Shown in pieces: positions 14,724 through 17,661 of a DNA stretch of 51,344 bases. The position numbers were made by a program, and so were the translations under genes. A model generated the notes under the pieces. The model was not told where the DNA came from. It saw nothing but the letters and a program-made list of their open reading frames with translations, and did no database searches. The DNA lies in assembly GCA_040905965.1 (NCBI GenBank), contig JBBDQP010000007.1, positions 8,042 to 59,385 on the forward strand. Direction: 5' to 3'. This stretch comes from Acidimicrobiia bacterium. Lineage in GTDB: Bacteria > Actinomycetota > Acidimicrobiia > Spongiisociales > ZC4RG35. How positions within the stretch are numbered: position 1 is the stretch's first letter; every line of letters begins with the position of its first letter.

Positions 14724-14977
14724 TGACATCCGGACCCGTGCAGCGGGGGACAAGGGCGGACGTGATACCTCCGGCCATTCCAGTCAGCGGCGGTGTGCAT
14801 TCCAGAAAGGCCCGATCGGTGGGTCTGGCTTGTCGCGTTTGGGCCAGTGTTTTCGGGCTTTCTTGCAGCACCAGAGACCCATTACTGCAAGCAAAGAGGC
14901 AGGATAGGGCGCGAGAAAACACCCGACTCTGGTCAGTCTGGATCCGCCGGTGCCGTTCCTTCGGCTTGACGGGCCAC
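14724..14977. repeat. 254-bp direct repeat copy 2 (core 14862-14891)
   Basis: Colinear with 8742-8995. Confidence 0.95.
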
Positions 14978-15024
14978 ATCCTCGGACCTGGAACGGATCG
15001 GCCGCCTCAACCGTTGGAGAGGTC

Positions 15025-15543
15025 ATGGGAGGACGCTTTTCATTGATGGTCGCCAGTCTCTTGGCGCTGAGCGTTGCGGCGTGCGGTACCGACACACTCG
15101 ATCATCCTCCAGGCGTTGCTGAAGTCGCGACCATGACCGCCGACGCCGCTATGAGCATCTGCGAGGGTCGCTGTGGCGACAAGATGGTGTACGTCGTCGA
15201 CGTGCTGAGAGATTTCGGTACACCCGCAGGCAAGGAACAGCCGATGCCTTCAGCTGTCCGGTCGGCTATTGCCCAGGCGCTGCCCGGAGCGGTCTTCGTT
15301 GCGCAGGCCGACCTGGCTGACCTGTTCGACGACGATTTCCTCGTCGACGGTGGTGACGGAGTCCTCGTCCAAGTTGGAGCGGTGCAGGACCTTGGTAGCA
15401 GCGTGGTGGGGATCAACGCGTACGTGACGACCGCGCGTGACGGGGCGTACGGAGAAACCTTCGCGTACGCCTGGGACGGATCCGGCTGGATACCGGCCAC
15501 TTCGGATGCGACCGACGTCCCCTTGACCACGGTGGTTTCCTAA
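15025..15543 (+). CDS. Hypothetical lipoprotein
   Basis: MGGRFSLMVASLLALSVAAC lipobox; GGAGAGG RBS. Confidence 0.75.
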   Translation: MGGRFSLMVASLLALSVAACGTDTLDHPPGVAEVATMTADAAMSICEGRCGDKMVYVVDVLRDFGTPAGKEQPMPSAVRSAIAQALPGAVFVAQADLADLFDDDFLVDGGDGVLVQVGAVQDLGSSVVGINAYVTTARDGAYGETFAYAWDGSGWIPATSDATDVPLTTVVS

Positions 15544-15590
15544 CCGCGTCGCCACCCGCCGCGGAGCGCAGATGCGGTTGCTGGGCGCTC

Positions 15591-16628
15591 CTATGTCAAT
15601 CCGTGGTCTCGGAAGGTCTTCCAGACTTGGCGGGCGACATGTCGTTTGGCGGCTCTGATAGTCCGTTTGCGGAGTGCGTCCTTGTTCTCAGGGTTGTGTC
15701 TGGAAGCGAAATCAGCGGCGTCTCCACCGTTGCGAAGCTGGGTTACGACAATGGTGTGCAGGGCCCGGTTGACCTGGCGGTTCCCTCCCCGGTTCAACCG
15801 GTGAAACTGCTGTCTGCCCGACGACGCGTCTAACGGGGCCGCCCCCGACCAGGCAGCGAACTTGGCGTCAGTAGCGAACCCGTCGATCCCGGCGGTCTCG
15901 GCGATGATCTGACAAGCCGTCACCAGGCCACACCCGAAGAACCGTTCAACCAGCGCATGACCCACCGGTGGCAACGCTTCCTGCATCCGTTCTTCCAACG
16001 CCTTGATCTCTCCGATCCGGACAATGCAGGTCTCGACGATCTGTCCGATCAGTTCCAACAGGGCCTGATCGAACCCCGTCGGGTCCTCAGCGTCGAACTG
16101 GGTGAACCGGCGGAGGCCACGAACGGTGCGGAGCCGGCTGGCGGTAGCGGACCGGTCCGGGTCCAGTTCGGTCACAAACGCCCGCAACTGGTTGATATCA
16201 GCGGTCTGCTGAGTCACCAACTGTTCCCGCCGGACCGTCAAAATCCGGATGATCTCCGAATCAGGAGTGTCCGCCCACCGGTGGCCTTCACCGGCAGCAG
16301 CTGCCCGAGCGATCGCCCTGGCATCCCCCGGATCAGTCTTCGACCGGCCCTCAGCCTTACGCCGTTCCGCCGTCAACCGGGTCGGGATCTCCCGCACCTC
16401 GAACCCCAACCCGTCCAGGATCCGGGTCAACGACACCCCATACCCAGACGCCCCCTCAATCCCAACCGTCACCACCTGAAACTCGGTCGCCAGCTCAGCC
16501 AGCCGCGCCCAACCGGTCAAAGTGTTCGGGACCGTCACCGCCCCCAACTCCCGGCCGATCTCATCCACCACAGCCGCGCTGATCGTGTCCAAATGCGGAT
16601 CACATCCCATCGTCGTTACCGTGTCCAT
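15591..16628 (-). CDS. IS110-family DEDD recombinase/transposase
   Basis: GCDPH, GIEGASGYG, SKTDPGDA (DEDD RuvC-like); GAAPLDASSG, RLNRGGNRQVNRAL (Tnp domain, catalytic Ser). Confidence 0.95.
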   Translation of the reverse strand: MDTVTTMGCDPHLDTISAAVVDEIGRELGAVTVPNTLTGWARLAELATEFQVVTVGIEGASGYGVSLTRILDGLGFEVREIPTRLTAERRKAEGRSKTDPGDARAIARAAAAGEGHRWADTPDSEIIRILTVRREQLVTQQTADINQLRAFVTELDPDRSATASRLRTVRGLRRFTQFDAEDPTGFDQALLELIGQIVETCIVRIGEIKALEERMQEALPPVGHALVERFFGCGLVTACQIIAETAGIDGFATDAKFAAWSGAAPLDASSGRQQFHRLNRGGNRQVNRALHTIVVTQLRNGGDAADFASRHNPENKDALRKRTIRAAKRHVARQVWKTFRDHGLT

Positions 16629-16675
16629 CACGGTCACCTCCACCACTCGATCGATACGTGTGCACGGGGTGAACC

Positions 16676-16835
16676 ACCAACGCGGACAGTCCTTTGTCGA
16701 GGCACTATTCGGCTCAGGCACCTATCAGGTCACGCGTTGACGGGAACCGGCCCCCGGATGGACAAGCCCAGCAAGAGTCACACCCCACACAGGGTGGACA
16801 AGGGGGGGAAGAGTCACATCCGGGGGCCGGTCACC
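16676..16835 (-). ncRNA. IS110 bridge RNA (target-binding and donor-binding loops)
   Basis: Stem ACCGGCCCCCGGATG/CATCCGGGGGCCGGT with two GTGACTCTT-N7-TTGTCCA strands; second stem CAACGCG/GCGTTG; guides match element flanks and ends. Confidence 0.85.
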
Positions 16836-16983
16836 CACCACCACACCATGACACAAAGGGGGGGGTCGTGACCGACGACCGCAGTCTCCTCGGTCACGGT
16901 TGCGCCGCTGATCGTGCTGGCCGGGTTCTTCGTCATCGCCACGGGGTTCCCTGCCCCCGATCTGCGTCGAAAGGGACCGCGGA

Positions 16984-17661
16984 CTATCCCGCCCGGCGGT
17001 ACGTCTCGAGTGCGTCGAGGATCAGGTCGAGGCCGAACTCGAACTCGTCGGAGTAGCTGTAACCGTCCCCGTACTCGGCGACCATCTCGGCCAGGTGGGG
17101 AAAGACCTGGTCGGCGTCGTCAGGGTTCGGCTCGTCGGGTGCTGGGGTCACCGCATCCGGATCTGGAGCGGTGTAGCTCGTCTCCTGGACGACGAACCCG
17201 TAGATGTAGCTGTCCAAGAGCATGAAGGCGTGTGCAGTCATCTGGAGGGAGAACCCGCCGACCCGGAGGCTCCCTATCACTGCGTCGACATACCGCAGCG
17301 TGGCGGGCCCCATCGTTGAAGTCGATTCCATCATCCCGATCGCCCAGGGGTGACTCGTCAGGACCCGCCGGGCCGAGAGGGCGCGTTGGCGCATGGCCGT
17401 GCGCCAGTCGCCGCCGGCCGGGGGCAACTCGATCTCGCCGAAGGCCAGGTCGACGATCCCGTGGAGCACGTCTTCCTTGTCTGCGACGTGCTTGTACAGC
17501 GACATCGCCTCGACCCCCAACCGCCCACCCAGGCGCCGCATGGTCAGCGACTCCAGCCCGCCCTCGTCGGCGATGGCGATCGCAGCGCGCAGGATTCGCT
17601 CGCGGCTGAGTGGTGGGCGCGTGCCTGGTTTCGGTGTGTGCTCTGAGATCTCTTCCGCCAT
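16984..17661 (-). CDS. TetR/AcrR regulator with TetR_C domain
   Basis: LSRERILRAAIAIADEGGLESLTMRRLGGRLGVEAMSLYKHV; FEFGLDLILD. Confidence 0.92.
   Translation of the reverse strand: MAEEISEHTPKPGTRPPLSRERILRAAIAIADEGGLESLTMRRLGGRLGVEAMSLYKHVADKEDVLHGIVDLAFGEIELPPAGGDWRTAMRQRALSARRVLTSHPWAIGMMESTSTMGPATLRYVDAVIGSLRVGGFSLQMTAHAFMLLDSYIYGFVVQETSYTAPDPDAVTPAPDEPNPDDADQVFPHLAEMVAEYGDGYSYSDEFEFGLDLILDALETYRRAG

What the first reader, a model, noticed from the sequence alone, without database searches (positions are those of the whole stretch)
15578..16865. IS110 with a fully readable bridge RNA: all four guides match its own target flanks and donor ends
Seen, in element (minus) orientation: the target loop has two GTGACTCTT-N7-TTGTCCA strands. 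One N7 is CCCCCCC (16808-16802), matching the left flank C8 run (16865-16858). The other is GCTGGGC (16772-16766), complementary to the right flank GCCCAGC (15586-15580; the match extends to 9 nt). The second loop has ATAGGTGC (16725-16718) vs right end ATAGGAGC (7/8), and ACAAAGG (16697-16691) complementary to left end CCTTTGT. Joining the ends would place TTGACA 15-17 bp from TGnCATGGT, a circle-junction promoter. Established: IS110 recombinases use bispecific bridge RNAs. This compact, highly symmetric actinobacterial variant with a homopolymer guide is a candidate programmable recombinase.
Basis: partly seen in the sequence, partly recalled or inferred. Interest (0 to 1): 0.75.

Follow-up and report, generated by a model that had tools for sequence, protein, structure and literature searches.

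The report
IS110 element with readable bridge RNA
This is an intact IS110-type jumping gene in an uncultured actinobacterium whose small guide RNA visibly spells out both its own ends and its insertion site, a correct reading of an already known mechanism rather than a new one.

Summary
Every motif sits at the stated coordinates. The ORF is an IS110 DEDD/Tnp recombinase: Pfam PF01548 and PF02371, NCBIfam NF033542 "IS110 family RNA-guided transposase", 165 bits against a cut-off of 140.

The 5' non-coding end folds into two internal-loop modules. Eleven related elements support the fold: 92.8% of cells paired, 12 pairs with double changes, 0 of 500 shuffles as good.

The decisive test is covariation.
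- **Left target guide:** across 21 distinct guides, the variable part equals the cognate left flank at 88 of 105 positions. Non-cognate pairings average 1.87 of 5, and 0 of 100000 permutations reach this.
- **Right target guide:** 39 of 48 positions across 12 distinct guides, again 0 of 100000.
- **Donor loop:** it covaries with the element's right end.

- The element is about 1275 bp, 15583-16860, bounded by an invariant CCC at both junctions.
- The "symmetry" is a set of GAC/GUC closing pairs.
- It is of ordinary size.

Other junctions of the identical element in the source metagenome and MAG have related, imperfectly matched flanks in REP-like repeats. No empty site, circle junction or RNA was seen.

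Verdict: new member of a known kind, interest about 0.3.

The parts
15583..16860 (-). Whole IS110-group element including the invariant CCC at each junction. The element proper runs from TTTGTGTCA at 16857 to GGAGCG ending at 15586. Length is about 1275 bp with one CCC.
   Evidence: Extent of homology to relatives. The Logan unitig spans exactly 15582-16862.
15591..16631 (-). Recombinase ORF, 346 aa from a GTG start with GGAGG 5 nt upstream. The conserved N-terminus MGCDPHLD starts at 16610. The stop TAG at 15593-15591 abuts the -35-like TTGACA.
   Evidence: PF01548 E 3e-21 and PF02371 E 3.3e-16. NF033542 scores 165.3 bits against a cut-off of 140. The E, D-x-x-D and SG motifs align to IS621 and ISCro4 chains and are invariant in 6 relatives.
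16747..16830 (-). Target-binding loop module. The outer stem pairs CCGGCCCCCGGATG (16830-16817) with CATCCGGGGGCCGG (16760-16747). It encloses two loop strands and an inner hairpin.
   Evidence: MFE fold. Consensus fold with compensatory pairs in helices 2-4.
16802..16809 (-). Left target guide (U + C7), on the 5' strand of the target loop between GACUC and UGUCC. It has the same sequence as left flank plus core.
   Evidence: 7 of 8 identical to flank 16866-16859. Positions 3-7 of this window match the cognate flank at 88 of 105 positions over 21 distinct guides, with 0 of 100000 permutations as good.
16765..16774 (-). Right target guide UUGCUGGG (16774-16767), complementary to CCCAGCAA. It is followed by two handshake-like bases CU (16766-16765).
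   Evidence: 9-nt complement to 15586-15578. Right guide against right flank: 39 of 48 over 12 distinct guides, 0 of 100000 permutations. The handshake definition comes from PMC11208158.
16678..16739 (-). Donor-binding loop module. The outer stem pairs CAACGCG (16739-16733) with CGCGUUG (16684-16678), with GAC/GUC closing pairs.
   Evidence: Helix 6 has 10 pairs, 3 with changes on both sides, and 95.5% of cells paired.
16717..16725 (-). Left donor guide AUAGGUGC(C). It has the sequence of the right-end stretch ATAGGAGC(G).
   Evidence: 7 of 8 match. Position 8 covaries: C/C here, A/A in most relatives. Position 5 covaries: A/A in L009, L010 and L135.
16689..16697 (-). Right donor guide ACAAAGG(AC), complementary to CCTTTGT at the left end.
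   Evidence: 7-nt complement here. In relatives the complement runs 9-10 nt across (A)GCCCTTTGT of the predicted circle junction.
16858..16866 (-). Left target (A + C5, 16866-16861) and the left copy of the shared CCC (16860-16858).
   Evidence: CCC is invariant before TTTGTG in 14 of 15 left ends from related genomes. The bases before it vary with the guide.
15578..15585 (-). Right copy of the shared CCC (15585-15583) and the right target AGCAA (15582-15578).
   Evidence: GCCC is invariant in 14 of 14 right ends listed. The bases after it vary with the guide.
15594..15599 (-). -35-like TTGACA in the right end.
   Evidence: Present in all 14 right ends listed. It would be read together with the left-end -10 only after circularisation (inference).
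16845..16853 (-). TG-n-CATGGT, an extended -10-like box in the left end.
   Evidence: T5, G6, A9 and T13 of the left end are invariant in 11 elements. The spacer to TTGACA would be 18 nt through a GCG-CCC-TTTGTGT junction, counted. No sigma-70-type promoter was found in the integrated form.

Best explanation
The region is an intact, recently active IS110-group insertion sequence in an Acidimicrobiia metagenome-assembled genome. It is about 1275 bp long and lies on the minus strand.

Its left end encodes a bridge RNA of about 160 nt with two internal loops.
- **Target loop, 5' strand:** it carries the sequence of the left target plus CC.
- **Target loop, 3' strand:** it is complementary to CCC plus 4-5 nt of right target.
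- **Donor loop:** it reads the element's own right end (ATAGGAGC) and left end (CCTTTGT) in the same way.

By homology with IS621, the proposed cycle is as follows.
1. The DEDD/Ser recombinase excises the element as a circle.
2. The circle's RE-CCC-LE junction brings TTGACA and TG-n-CATGGT together into a promoter that drives the bridge RNA and the recombinase.
3. The RNA then bridges the circle junction and a C-run target. Strand exchange takes place within the shared CCC.

**Shown here:** protein family, RNA structure with compensatory changes, guide-flank covariation, and other junctions of the same element.

**Inferred:** transcription, circle formation, the junction promoter, and the exact crossover dinucleotide within CCC.
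For: **Protein.**
- PF01548 and PF02371.
- NF033542 above its cut-off.
- Distant matches to ISCro4 (9t56, E 3.6e-7) and IS621 (8wt6, E 6.4e-6), with the IEG, D-x-x-D and SG motifs aligned.
- These residues are invariant in 6 relatives.

**RNA.**
- MFE z-score -2.99.
- Of 47 consensus pairs, 92.8% of cells are paired and 12 pairs change on both sides.
- 0 of 500 shuffles reach the covariation score. Slid controls fall to 37-54% paired.

**Guides.**
- Left target guide against left target: 88 of 105 positions over 21 distinct guides. Non-cognate mean is 1.87 of 5, and 0 of 100000 permutations match.
- Right target guide against right target: 39 of 48 over 12 distinct guides. Non-cognate mean is 1.24 of 4, and 0 of 100000 match.
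- The left donor guide covaries with the right end at two positions.
- Strand polarity and lengths match the published rule.

**Activity.**
- Contigs in 4 runs of one study run from the identical element into other flanks.
- Two contig ends of the same MAG, C53 and C54, carry those flanks.
- One guide is seen at three different sites in G192, G187 and L094, and another in G111 and G112.
Against: - No RNA data exist; no RNA run is listed.
- No circle junction or empty site turned up in contigs, the genome or fetched loci.
- No empty site turned up in the 7 other genomes of the genus.
- Rfam has no matching family.
- For this element alone the matches are only moderately unlikely: 13 of 3000 shuffles reach both.
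- The left donor guide misses the base before CCC in every element. Here it also misses the core.
- The right donor guide mismatches the first C of CCC here.
- One relative, G144 (L004), has a right guide that matches its right flank at 0 of 4 positions.
- Three relatives (G042a, L108, L116) fit only after a 1-nt register shift in the C run.
- The second site of this very element matches the left guide at only 5 of 7 positions.
Confidence: 0.9

Rival explanations
1. The element is a genuine IS110 with a bridge-RNA locus, but the window copy is a silent, fixed relic that no longer moves.
For: - Only one full copy is assembled in the MAG.
- No empty site or circle junction was seen.
- No promoter was found in the integrated form.
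- The donor loop has more mismatches to its own ends than in relatives.
Against: - The ORF is intact and the catalytic motifs are conserved.
- The same unitig, 15582-16862 with 0 differences, continues into at least two other flank sequences in 4 runs.
- MAG contig ends C53 and C54 carry those flanks.
- The own right-end C at 15587 is matched by a C in the left donor guide. This argues for maintained pairing.
Confidence: 0.07
2. The guide-like matches are not RNA guides. They are DNA-level subterminal copies of the target or ends that the transposase reads as DNA, or they are chance in a GC-rich, C-run-rich genome.
For: - C runs are common: 837 runs of C6 or longer in the 2.4-Mb genome.
- The left 7-nt match alone arises in 537 of 3000 shuffles.
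- No RNA evidence exists.
Against: - Covariation of both guides with flanks over many distinct elements, with 0 of 100000 permutations each.
- The matches always sit in the two strands of an internal loop whose stems show compensatory changes. That is a property of an RNA, not of a duplex DNA site.
- Opposite strand polarity of the two loop strands, exactly as in IS621.
- The protein belongs to the family for which RNA guidance was shown.
Confidence: 0.03

Closest known systems
IS621 of E. coli and its bridge RNA (Durrant et al. 2024, PMC11208160; Hiraizumi et al. 2024, PMC11208158; PDB 8wt6)
   Same: - Two-domain DEDD/Ser recombinase.
- Non-coding RNA in the left end with a target loop followed by a donor loop.
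- The 5' loop strands have top-strand sequence and the 3' strands are complementary to it.
- The core is shared by donor and target.
- -35 in the right end and -10 in the left end.
- Bases 3' of the right target guide are complementary to the last bases of the right end, the handshake position.

   Different: - Very distant protein (E 6.4e-6, two short aligned stretches).
- The shared sequence is an invariant CCC rather than CT.
- The left target guide covers 6 + CC.
- The right target guide covers all three C's plus 4-5 nt.
- The bases at the donor-loop handshake position (C, then U or C) are constant. They complement the element's own right end rather than the varying target.
- High-GC host of class Acidimicrobiia.
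ISCro4 transposase (PDB 9t56)
   Same: Best solved-structure match, E 3.6e-7. The same motifs are aligned.
   Different: Only the deposited name and the alignment were seen. Nothing about its RNA or target was examined here.
ISPpu10 of Pseudomonas putida (bioRxiv 10.64898/2026.03.19.712850; abstract and outline read)
   Same: - IS110 element that inserts into copies of a conserved intergenic repeat.
- That repeat has a GC-rich stem-loop 5' of the base-paired target.
- Here other copies sit in REP-like repeats.
- 12 of 28 distinct left flanks in the clade fold with z below -1.5.
   Different: The window's own site has only a 4-bp hairpin (z +0.7). No functional test exists. The host is unrelated.
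IS1111-group elements with seekRNA (recalled; only a review listing was seen)
   Same: Same recombinase superfamily and the same RNA-guided principle.
   Different: In that group the RNA lies 3' of the recombinase gene (recalled). Here it lies 5' of the gene, as in the IS110 group.

Membership tests
IS110 family (IS110 group) bridge recombinase system | N-terminal RuvC-like DEDD domain | tested here: met
   PF01548, E 3e-21, residues 9-156. The D (GCDPH), E (IEGASG) and D-x-x-D (DPGDA) residues are invariant in 6 relatives. E and D-x-x-D align with the IS621 chain. The first D lies outside the aligned stretch.
IS110 family (IS110 group) bridge recombinase system | C-terminal Tnp domain with catalytic serine | tested here: met
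   PF02371, E 3.3e-16. SSG aligns with ESG of IS621 and ISCro4. S241 is named as catalytic in PMC11208158.
IS110 family (IS110 group) bridge recombinase system | Curated whole-protein model | tested here: met
   NF033542 'IS110 family RNA-guided transposase', 165.3 bits against a cut-off of 140.
IS110 family (IS110 group) bridge recombinase system | Structured non-coding RNA in the left end, upstream of the gene, with two internal loops | tested here: met
   47 pairs, 92.8% paired, 12 with double changes. The inner stem of the donor loop is not resolved.
IS110 family (IS110 group) bridge recombinase system | Target-loop strands match the left target (same sense) and right target (complement), core included | tested here: met
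   Own element: 7 of 8 and 8-9 nt. Covariation.
IS110 family (IS110 group) bridge recombinase system | Donor-loop strands match the right end (same sense) and left end (complement), core included | tested here: inconclusive
   The right donor guide complements CC(C)TTTGT in all 14 complete elements. The left donor guide matches ATAGNNGN and covaries at 2 positions. It reaches the core only through a mismatch or a bulge, and not at all in this element.
IS110 family (IS110 group) bridge recombinase system | Circular intermediate with a promoter assembled at the RE-LE junction | not testable with these tools
   The motifs are placed correctly, with an 18-nt spacer. Their key bases are invariant. 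No junction sequence was found in contigs, loci or the genome.
IS110 family (IS110 group) bridge recombinase system | Bridge RNA is expressed and bound by the recombinase | not testable with these tools
   No RNA run is listed for this stretch.
Rfam RNA families | Match to any curated covariance model | tested here: not met
   0 matches at E up to 1 over 15300-17200. This only says that no curated model fits this clade.

The most novel reading that the evidence does not exclude
This Acidimicrobiia clade may work in a different register from IS621. Three features point that way.
- Donor and target share an invariant trinucleotide, CCC. The left guides cover only its first two bases. The right target guide covers all three, as does the right donor guide in relatives but not in this element.
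- Both loops are clamped by identical GAC/GUC pairs, which makes the target loop pseudo-symmetric.
- The donor-loop handshake bases are fixed and complementary to the element's own right end. In IS621 that configuration blocks strand exchange.

If real, this implies a different crossover position or a built-in brake on integration. It would also offer a high-GC, C-run-targeting orthologue with different design rules.
Probability: 0.15. Interest if true: 0.5.

Novelty: new member of a known kind. Interest (0 to 1): 0.3.

Why it matters
The reading shows that a bridge RNA can be read directly from raw sequence. It also adds a small, well-resolved natural series to the known family: about 21 distinct left guides and 12 right guides, each with its cognate flank, from Acidimicrobiia genomes and metagenomes.

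Closely related copies have changed guide and target together. The window element reads AGCA, while the G042 element, 86-91% identical in its terminal stretches, reads AACA. That is natural reprogramming at short evolutionary distance.

The mechanism itself has been published since 2024. The value is therefore that of one more orthologue for tool screening and for studying how these elements track REP-like repeats. It is not a discovery of principle.

Tried and rejected
- **Rfam scan of 15300-17200:** no match.
- **Second full copy in the MAG by DNA search:** none; only two short weak matches.
- **Empty site in the genus:** 7 of 7 other genomes match parts of the query, but none matches the intergenic flanks. 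Homology stops at the end of the TetR gene.
- **Predicted empty-site motif in the MAG:** 0 exact matches and 14 with one mismatch. A reversed control gave 35, so there is no enrichment.
- **Genome-contig scan with the recombinase alignment:** 11 loci, mostly the same species already found through the genome search.
- **Metagenome pattern scan:** of 80 listed loci only 16 are real relatives (L074, 078, 083, 090, 093, 094, 097, 101, 106, 108, 116, 122, 123, 130, 135, 140). The other 64 are chance matches to a loose pattern.
- **Sequencing runs:** no RNA holder is listed. Contigs show no joints, so neither an empty site nor a circle junction.
- **Depths:** the element unitig has depth 149 and the flank unitigs about 50 in run X1. 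These are per-contig figures and were not used as a copy number.
- **RE-LE junction regex over all loci and the genome:** 0 hits.
- **Sigma-70 scan of the integrated region:** 0 promoters.
- **Earlier findings of this scan near the place:** none.
- **Donor-loop inner stem:** a clean stem could not be aligned across the clade.
- **Supplements:** those of the cited papers could not be seen. They may list this clade among predicted bridge RNAs.

Full report
**What is in the sequence.** The region was read on the minus strand. It holds a 346-aa ORF at 15591-16631, preceded by about 226 nt of non-coding DNA.
- The two GTGACTCTT-N7-TTGTCCA strands have N7 = CCCCCCC at 16808-16802 and GCTGGGC at 16772-16766.
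- The C8 run lies at 16865-16858.
- GCCCAGC lies at 15586-15580, and the complement extends to 9 nt.
- ATAGGTGC lies at 16725-16718, and ACAAAGG at 16697-16691.
- TTGACA lies at 15599-15594, and TG-n-CATGGT at 16853-16845.

**The protein.** It carries PF01548 (DEDD_Tnp_IS110) and PF02371 (Transposase_20). It passes the NCBIfam equivalog NF033542, "IS110 family RNA-guided transposase", at 165.3 bits against a cut-off of 140.

Against solved structures it matches ISCro4 (9t56, E 3.6e-7) and IS621 (8wt6, E 6.4e-6) only distantly. The IEG glutamate, the D-x-x-D pair and the SG serine are nevertheless aligned. These residues are invariant in an alignment with five relatives that are 49-54% identical. 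The catalytic roles of D11, E60, D102, D105 and S241 in IS621 were read in PMC11208158.

**Host and relatives.** The window lies in a 2.4-Mb assembly of 112 contigs, 94% complete. Named relatives of the element come from Acidimicrobiia MAGs labelled Ilumatobacteraceae or Acidimicrobiaceae.

In 200 other genomes of the family, 41 gave some DNA match. Only about ten species carry alignable elements of this clade:
- G042, 86-91% identical in its terminal stretches;
- G144, G037, G192, G031, G112, G111, G181, G187 and G028;
- L055 and L064.

A loose pattern scan of metagenome contigs listed 80 loci. Sixteen of them are real relatives and 64 are chance hits.

**Ends.** Left ends were aligned with their flanks, as were right ends.
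- Conservation starts at CCC-TTTGTGTCA. The CCC is present in 14 of 15 left ends from related genomes.
- Conservation stops at TTGACATAGGAG(A/C)G-CCC, in 14 of 14 right ends.
- Everything outside these points varies.

The element therefore spans 15583-16860 with a CCC at each junction. A Logan unitig in four runs spans exactly 15582-16862, which agrees.

**RNA structure.**
- The left end folds with z = -2.99.
- An 11-sequence alignment (A2) gives a consensus with an outer and an inner stem around a first internal loop. A second module is closed by CAACGCG/CGCGUUG.
- Counting that structure gives 92.8% paired cells and 12 pairs changed on both sides. None of 500 shuffles reaches the covariation score, and slid controls fall to 37-54% paired.
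Each loop strand begins with GAC and ends with GUC. The GAC of one strand pairs with the GUC of the other at both ends of the loop (pairs 48-50/109-111 and 64-66/92-94, invariant).
- The inner stem of the second loop could not be aligned cleanly.

**The target loop reads the flanks.** The published rule (PMC11208160, passages) has three parts.
- The 3' side pairs with the top strand over 4-7 nt.
- The core is included in each.

*Left guide.* The 5' strand here is GACUC-N10-UGUCC.
- Positions 3-9 of N10 equal the 7 bases that end one base before TTTGTG. That is five variable bases plus the first two C's of CCC.
- Position 2 also matches in most elements.
- Over 29 guide-flank pairs with 21 distinct guides, the five variable positions match the cognate flank at 88 of 105. 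Non-cognate pairings average 1.87 of 5, and 0 of 100000 permutations reach this.
- Rows left out before that count:
  - L122 and L130, which duplicate L101;
  - L123, which duplicates L083;
  - G181, whose left end has an extra T and would score 3 of 5 by my reading.
- Three low scorers (G042a, L108, L116, 2 of 5 each) fit after a one-base shift in the C run.

*Right guide.* The reverse complement of the 3' strand reads (A)G-CCC-NNNN(A).
- The four variable bases match the four bases after the right-hand CCC at 53 of 64 over 16 pairs.
- Over 12 distinct guides they match at 39 of 48. Non-cognate mean is 1.24 of 4, and 0 of 100000 permutations reach this.
- Two of those pairs (G042, G181) join a left end and a right end from different contigs of one genome.
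- G111b and the two further G042 right ends (AACG, 3 of 4) were not entered.
- G144 is a clear miss at 0 of 4.
- For the window element the match is 5 of 5 (AGCAA).

*Handshake position.* The bases just 3' of this guide, CU, complement AG, the last two bases of the right end in most relatives. Here only the G fits. This is the position of the target-loop handshake guide described for IS621.

**The donor loop reads the element's ends.**
- The reverse complement of the 3' strand is (A)GCCCTTTGT in relatives. That is a 9-10-nt match to the predicted RE-CCC-LE junction.
- Here it is GTCCTTTGT, a 7-nt match with a mismatch at the first C.
- The 5' strand carries AUAGGUGA in most elements, against ATAGGAGA of the right end.
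- Two positions covary:
  - the window element has C in both;
  - L009, L010 and L135 have A at position 5 in both.
- The base before CCC is mismatched in every element. The left donor guide therefore reaches the core only through a mismatch or a bulge, and in this element not at all.

**Chance for this element alone.** Shuffles of the left end reach the left match in 537 of 3000, the right match in 95 of 3000, and both in 13 of 3000. The case rests on the family, not on the single copy.

**Other insertions of the same element.** Four sediment-metagenome runs of one study hold the stretch. Their contigs run from the identical element into other sequence:
- on the left, ...CTCGGCCACT then CCCCC;
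- on the right, GCCC-AGCA-CTCCCTCGC... and GCCC-A-ACACTCCCTCGC...

In the MAG itself, contig C53 ends with ...CTCGGCCACTCCCC and C54 starts with CCCAACACTCCCTCGC. At least one more copy therefore lies between contig ends.

These flanks belong to a REP-like repeat family of the genome, with copies on C28, C57, C79 and C106. They match the guides imperfectly: 5 of 7 on the left, and 4 of 4 or 3 of 4 on the right. The window site itself is a perfect match and is not in such a repeat.

No empty site and no circle junction were found anywhere.

**Promoter.** Joining the ends through one CCC would put TTGACA 18 nt upstream of CATGGT and 15 nt upstream of its TG (counted). TTGACA is present in all listed right ends. 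T5, G6, A9 and T13 of the left end are invariant. The integrated form has no sigma-70-type promoter by a simple scan. This fits the junction-promoter arrangement described for IS621 but is not shown here.

**Comparison and verdict.** The element works like IS621 and passes the membership tests that could be run.

It differs in four details:
- a CCC shared by donor and target;
- the lengths of the guides;
- GAC/GUC clamps on both loops;
- a fixed donor-loop handshake position that complements the element's own end.

It is not unusually compact. The 346-aa protein and the roughly 160-nt RNA sit inside the published ranges of about 300-460 aa and 150-250 nt.

Many natural targets of the clade carry a GC-rich stem-loop just 5' of the paired bases: 12 of 28 distinct flanks fold with z below -1.5. 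This recalls the ISPpu10 preprint (abstract). The window's own site does not (z +0.7).

The finding is a correct and unusually complete reading of a known kind of system. It is a new member, of modest interest.

Noticed in passing
G000 contigs C28:44, C57:25980, C106 (two tandem copies near 17144-17212 on the reverse strand), C79:2300 reverse, C8, C11: A REP-like intergenic repeat family, roughly GGCCCCCCTCGGCCTCGC-N-CTCGGCCACTCCCCCC-AAC...GGGGGGAGAGA. It has C6/G6 runs and hairpins. Other copies of the element sit in members of it, and similar repeats flank the G042 copies.
   Followed up: partly
Left flanks of 28 distinct insertion sites (loci listed): A GC-rich stem-loop lies just 5' of, or overlaps, the left target in many sites. 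Mean z is -1.4, and 12 of 28 have z below -1.5. The window's own site has only GTCGT/ACGAC at 16880-16866. This resembles the target stem-loop reported for ISPpu10 (abstract).
   Followed up: partly
L006 and L039 (G042 contigs C81, C82): Two left ends with nearly identical flanks differ by one base inside the left target guide (GCUCCCCCC against GGUCCCCCC). This may be strain variation or two copies in paralogous repeats.
   Followed up: no
L062 (Microbacterium sp.) and L063 (Actinomycetales MAG), upstream 300 nt: Distant IS110 relatives (30-39% identity) have a similar two-loop left end with CUGACUC and GUGUCG motifs. The closing pairs of their inner stem are swapped, so the loop clamp is wider than this clade.
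   Followed up: no
window 16984-17661 (-) and 14950-15543 (+): The element sits between the 3' ends of two convergent genes. One is a TetR-family regulator, with weak below-cut-off NCBIfam hits. The other is a 197-aa ORF with no NCBIfam family.
   Followed up: partly
G000 contigs C33, C92, C112: Runs of 10 N (scaffold gaps) lie directly next to long C homopolymers. Poly-C tracts therefore break this assembly, and C-run lengths, including the C8 at the left junction, should be treated with some caution.
   Followed up: no
window 15591-16631 (-), residues 153-294: Weak hit far below cut-off to NF052498, 'TIGR-Tas system RNA-guided endonuclease' (24 bits against a cut-off of 100, E 3e-5).
   Followed up: no
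L108 (metagenome contig): A relative carries the same right target guide as the window element (GCUGGGC) but a left guide ACUCCCCC. That left guide fits the REP-like sites better than the window's C7 guide. The C7 guide may be a recent one-base derivative.
   Followed up: no
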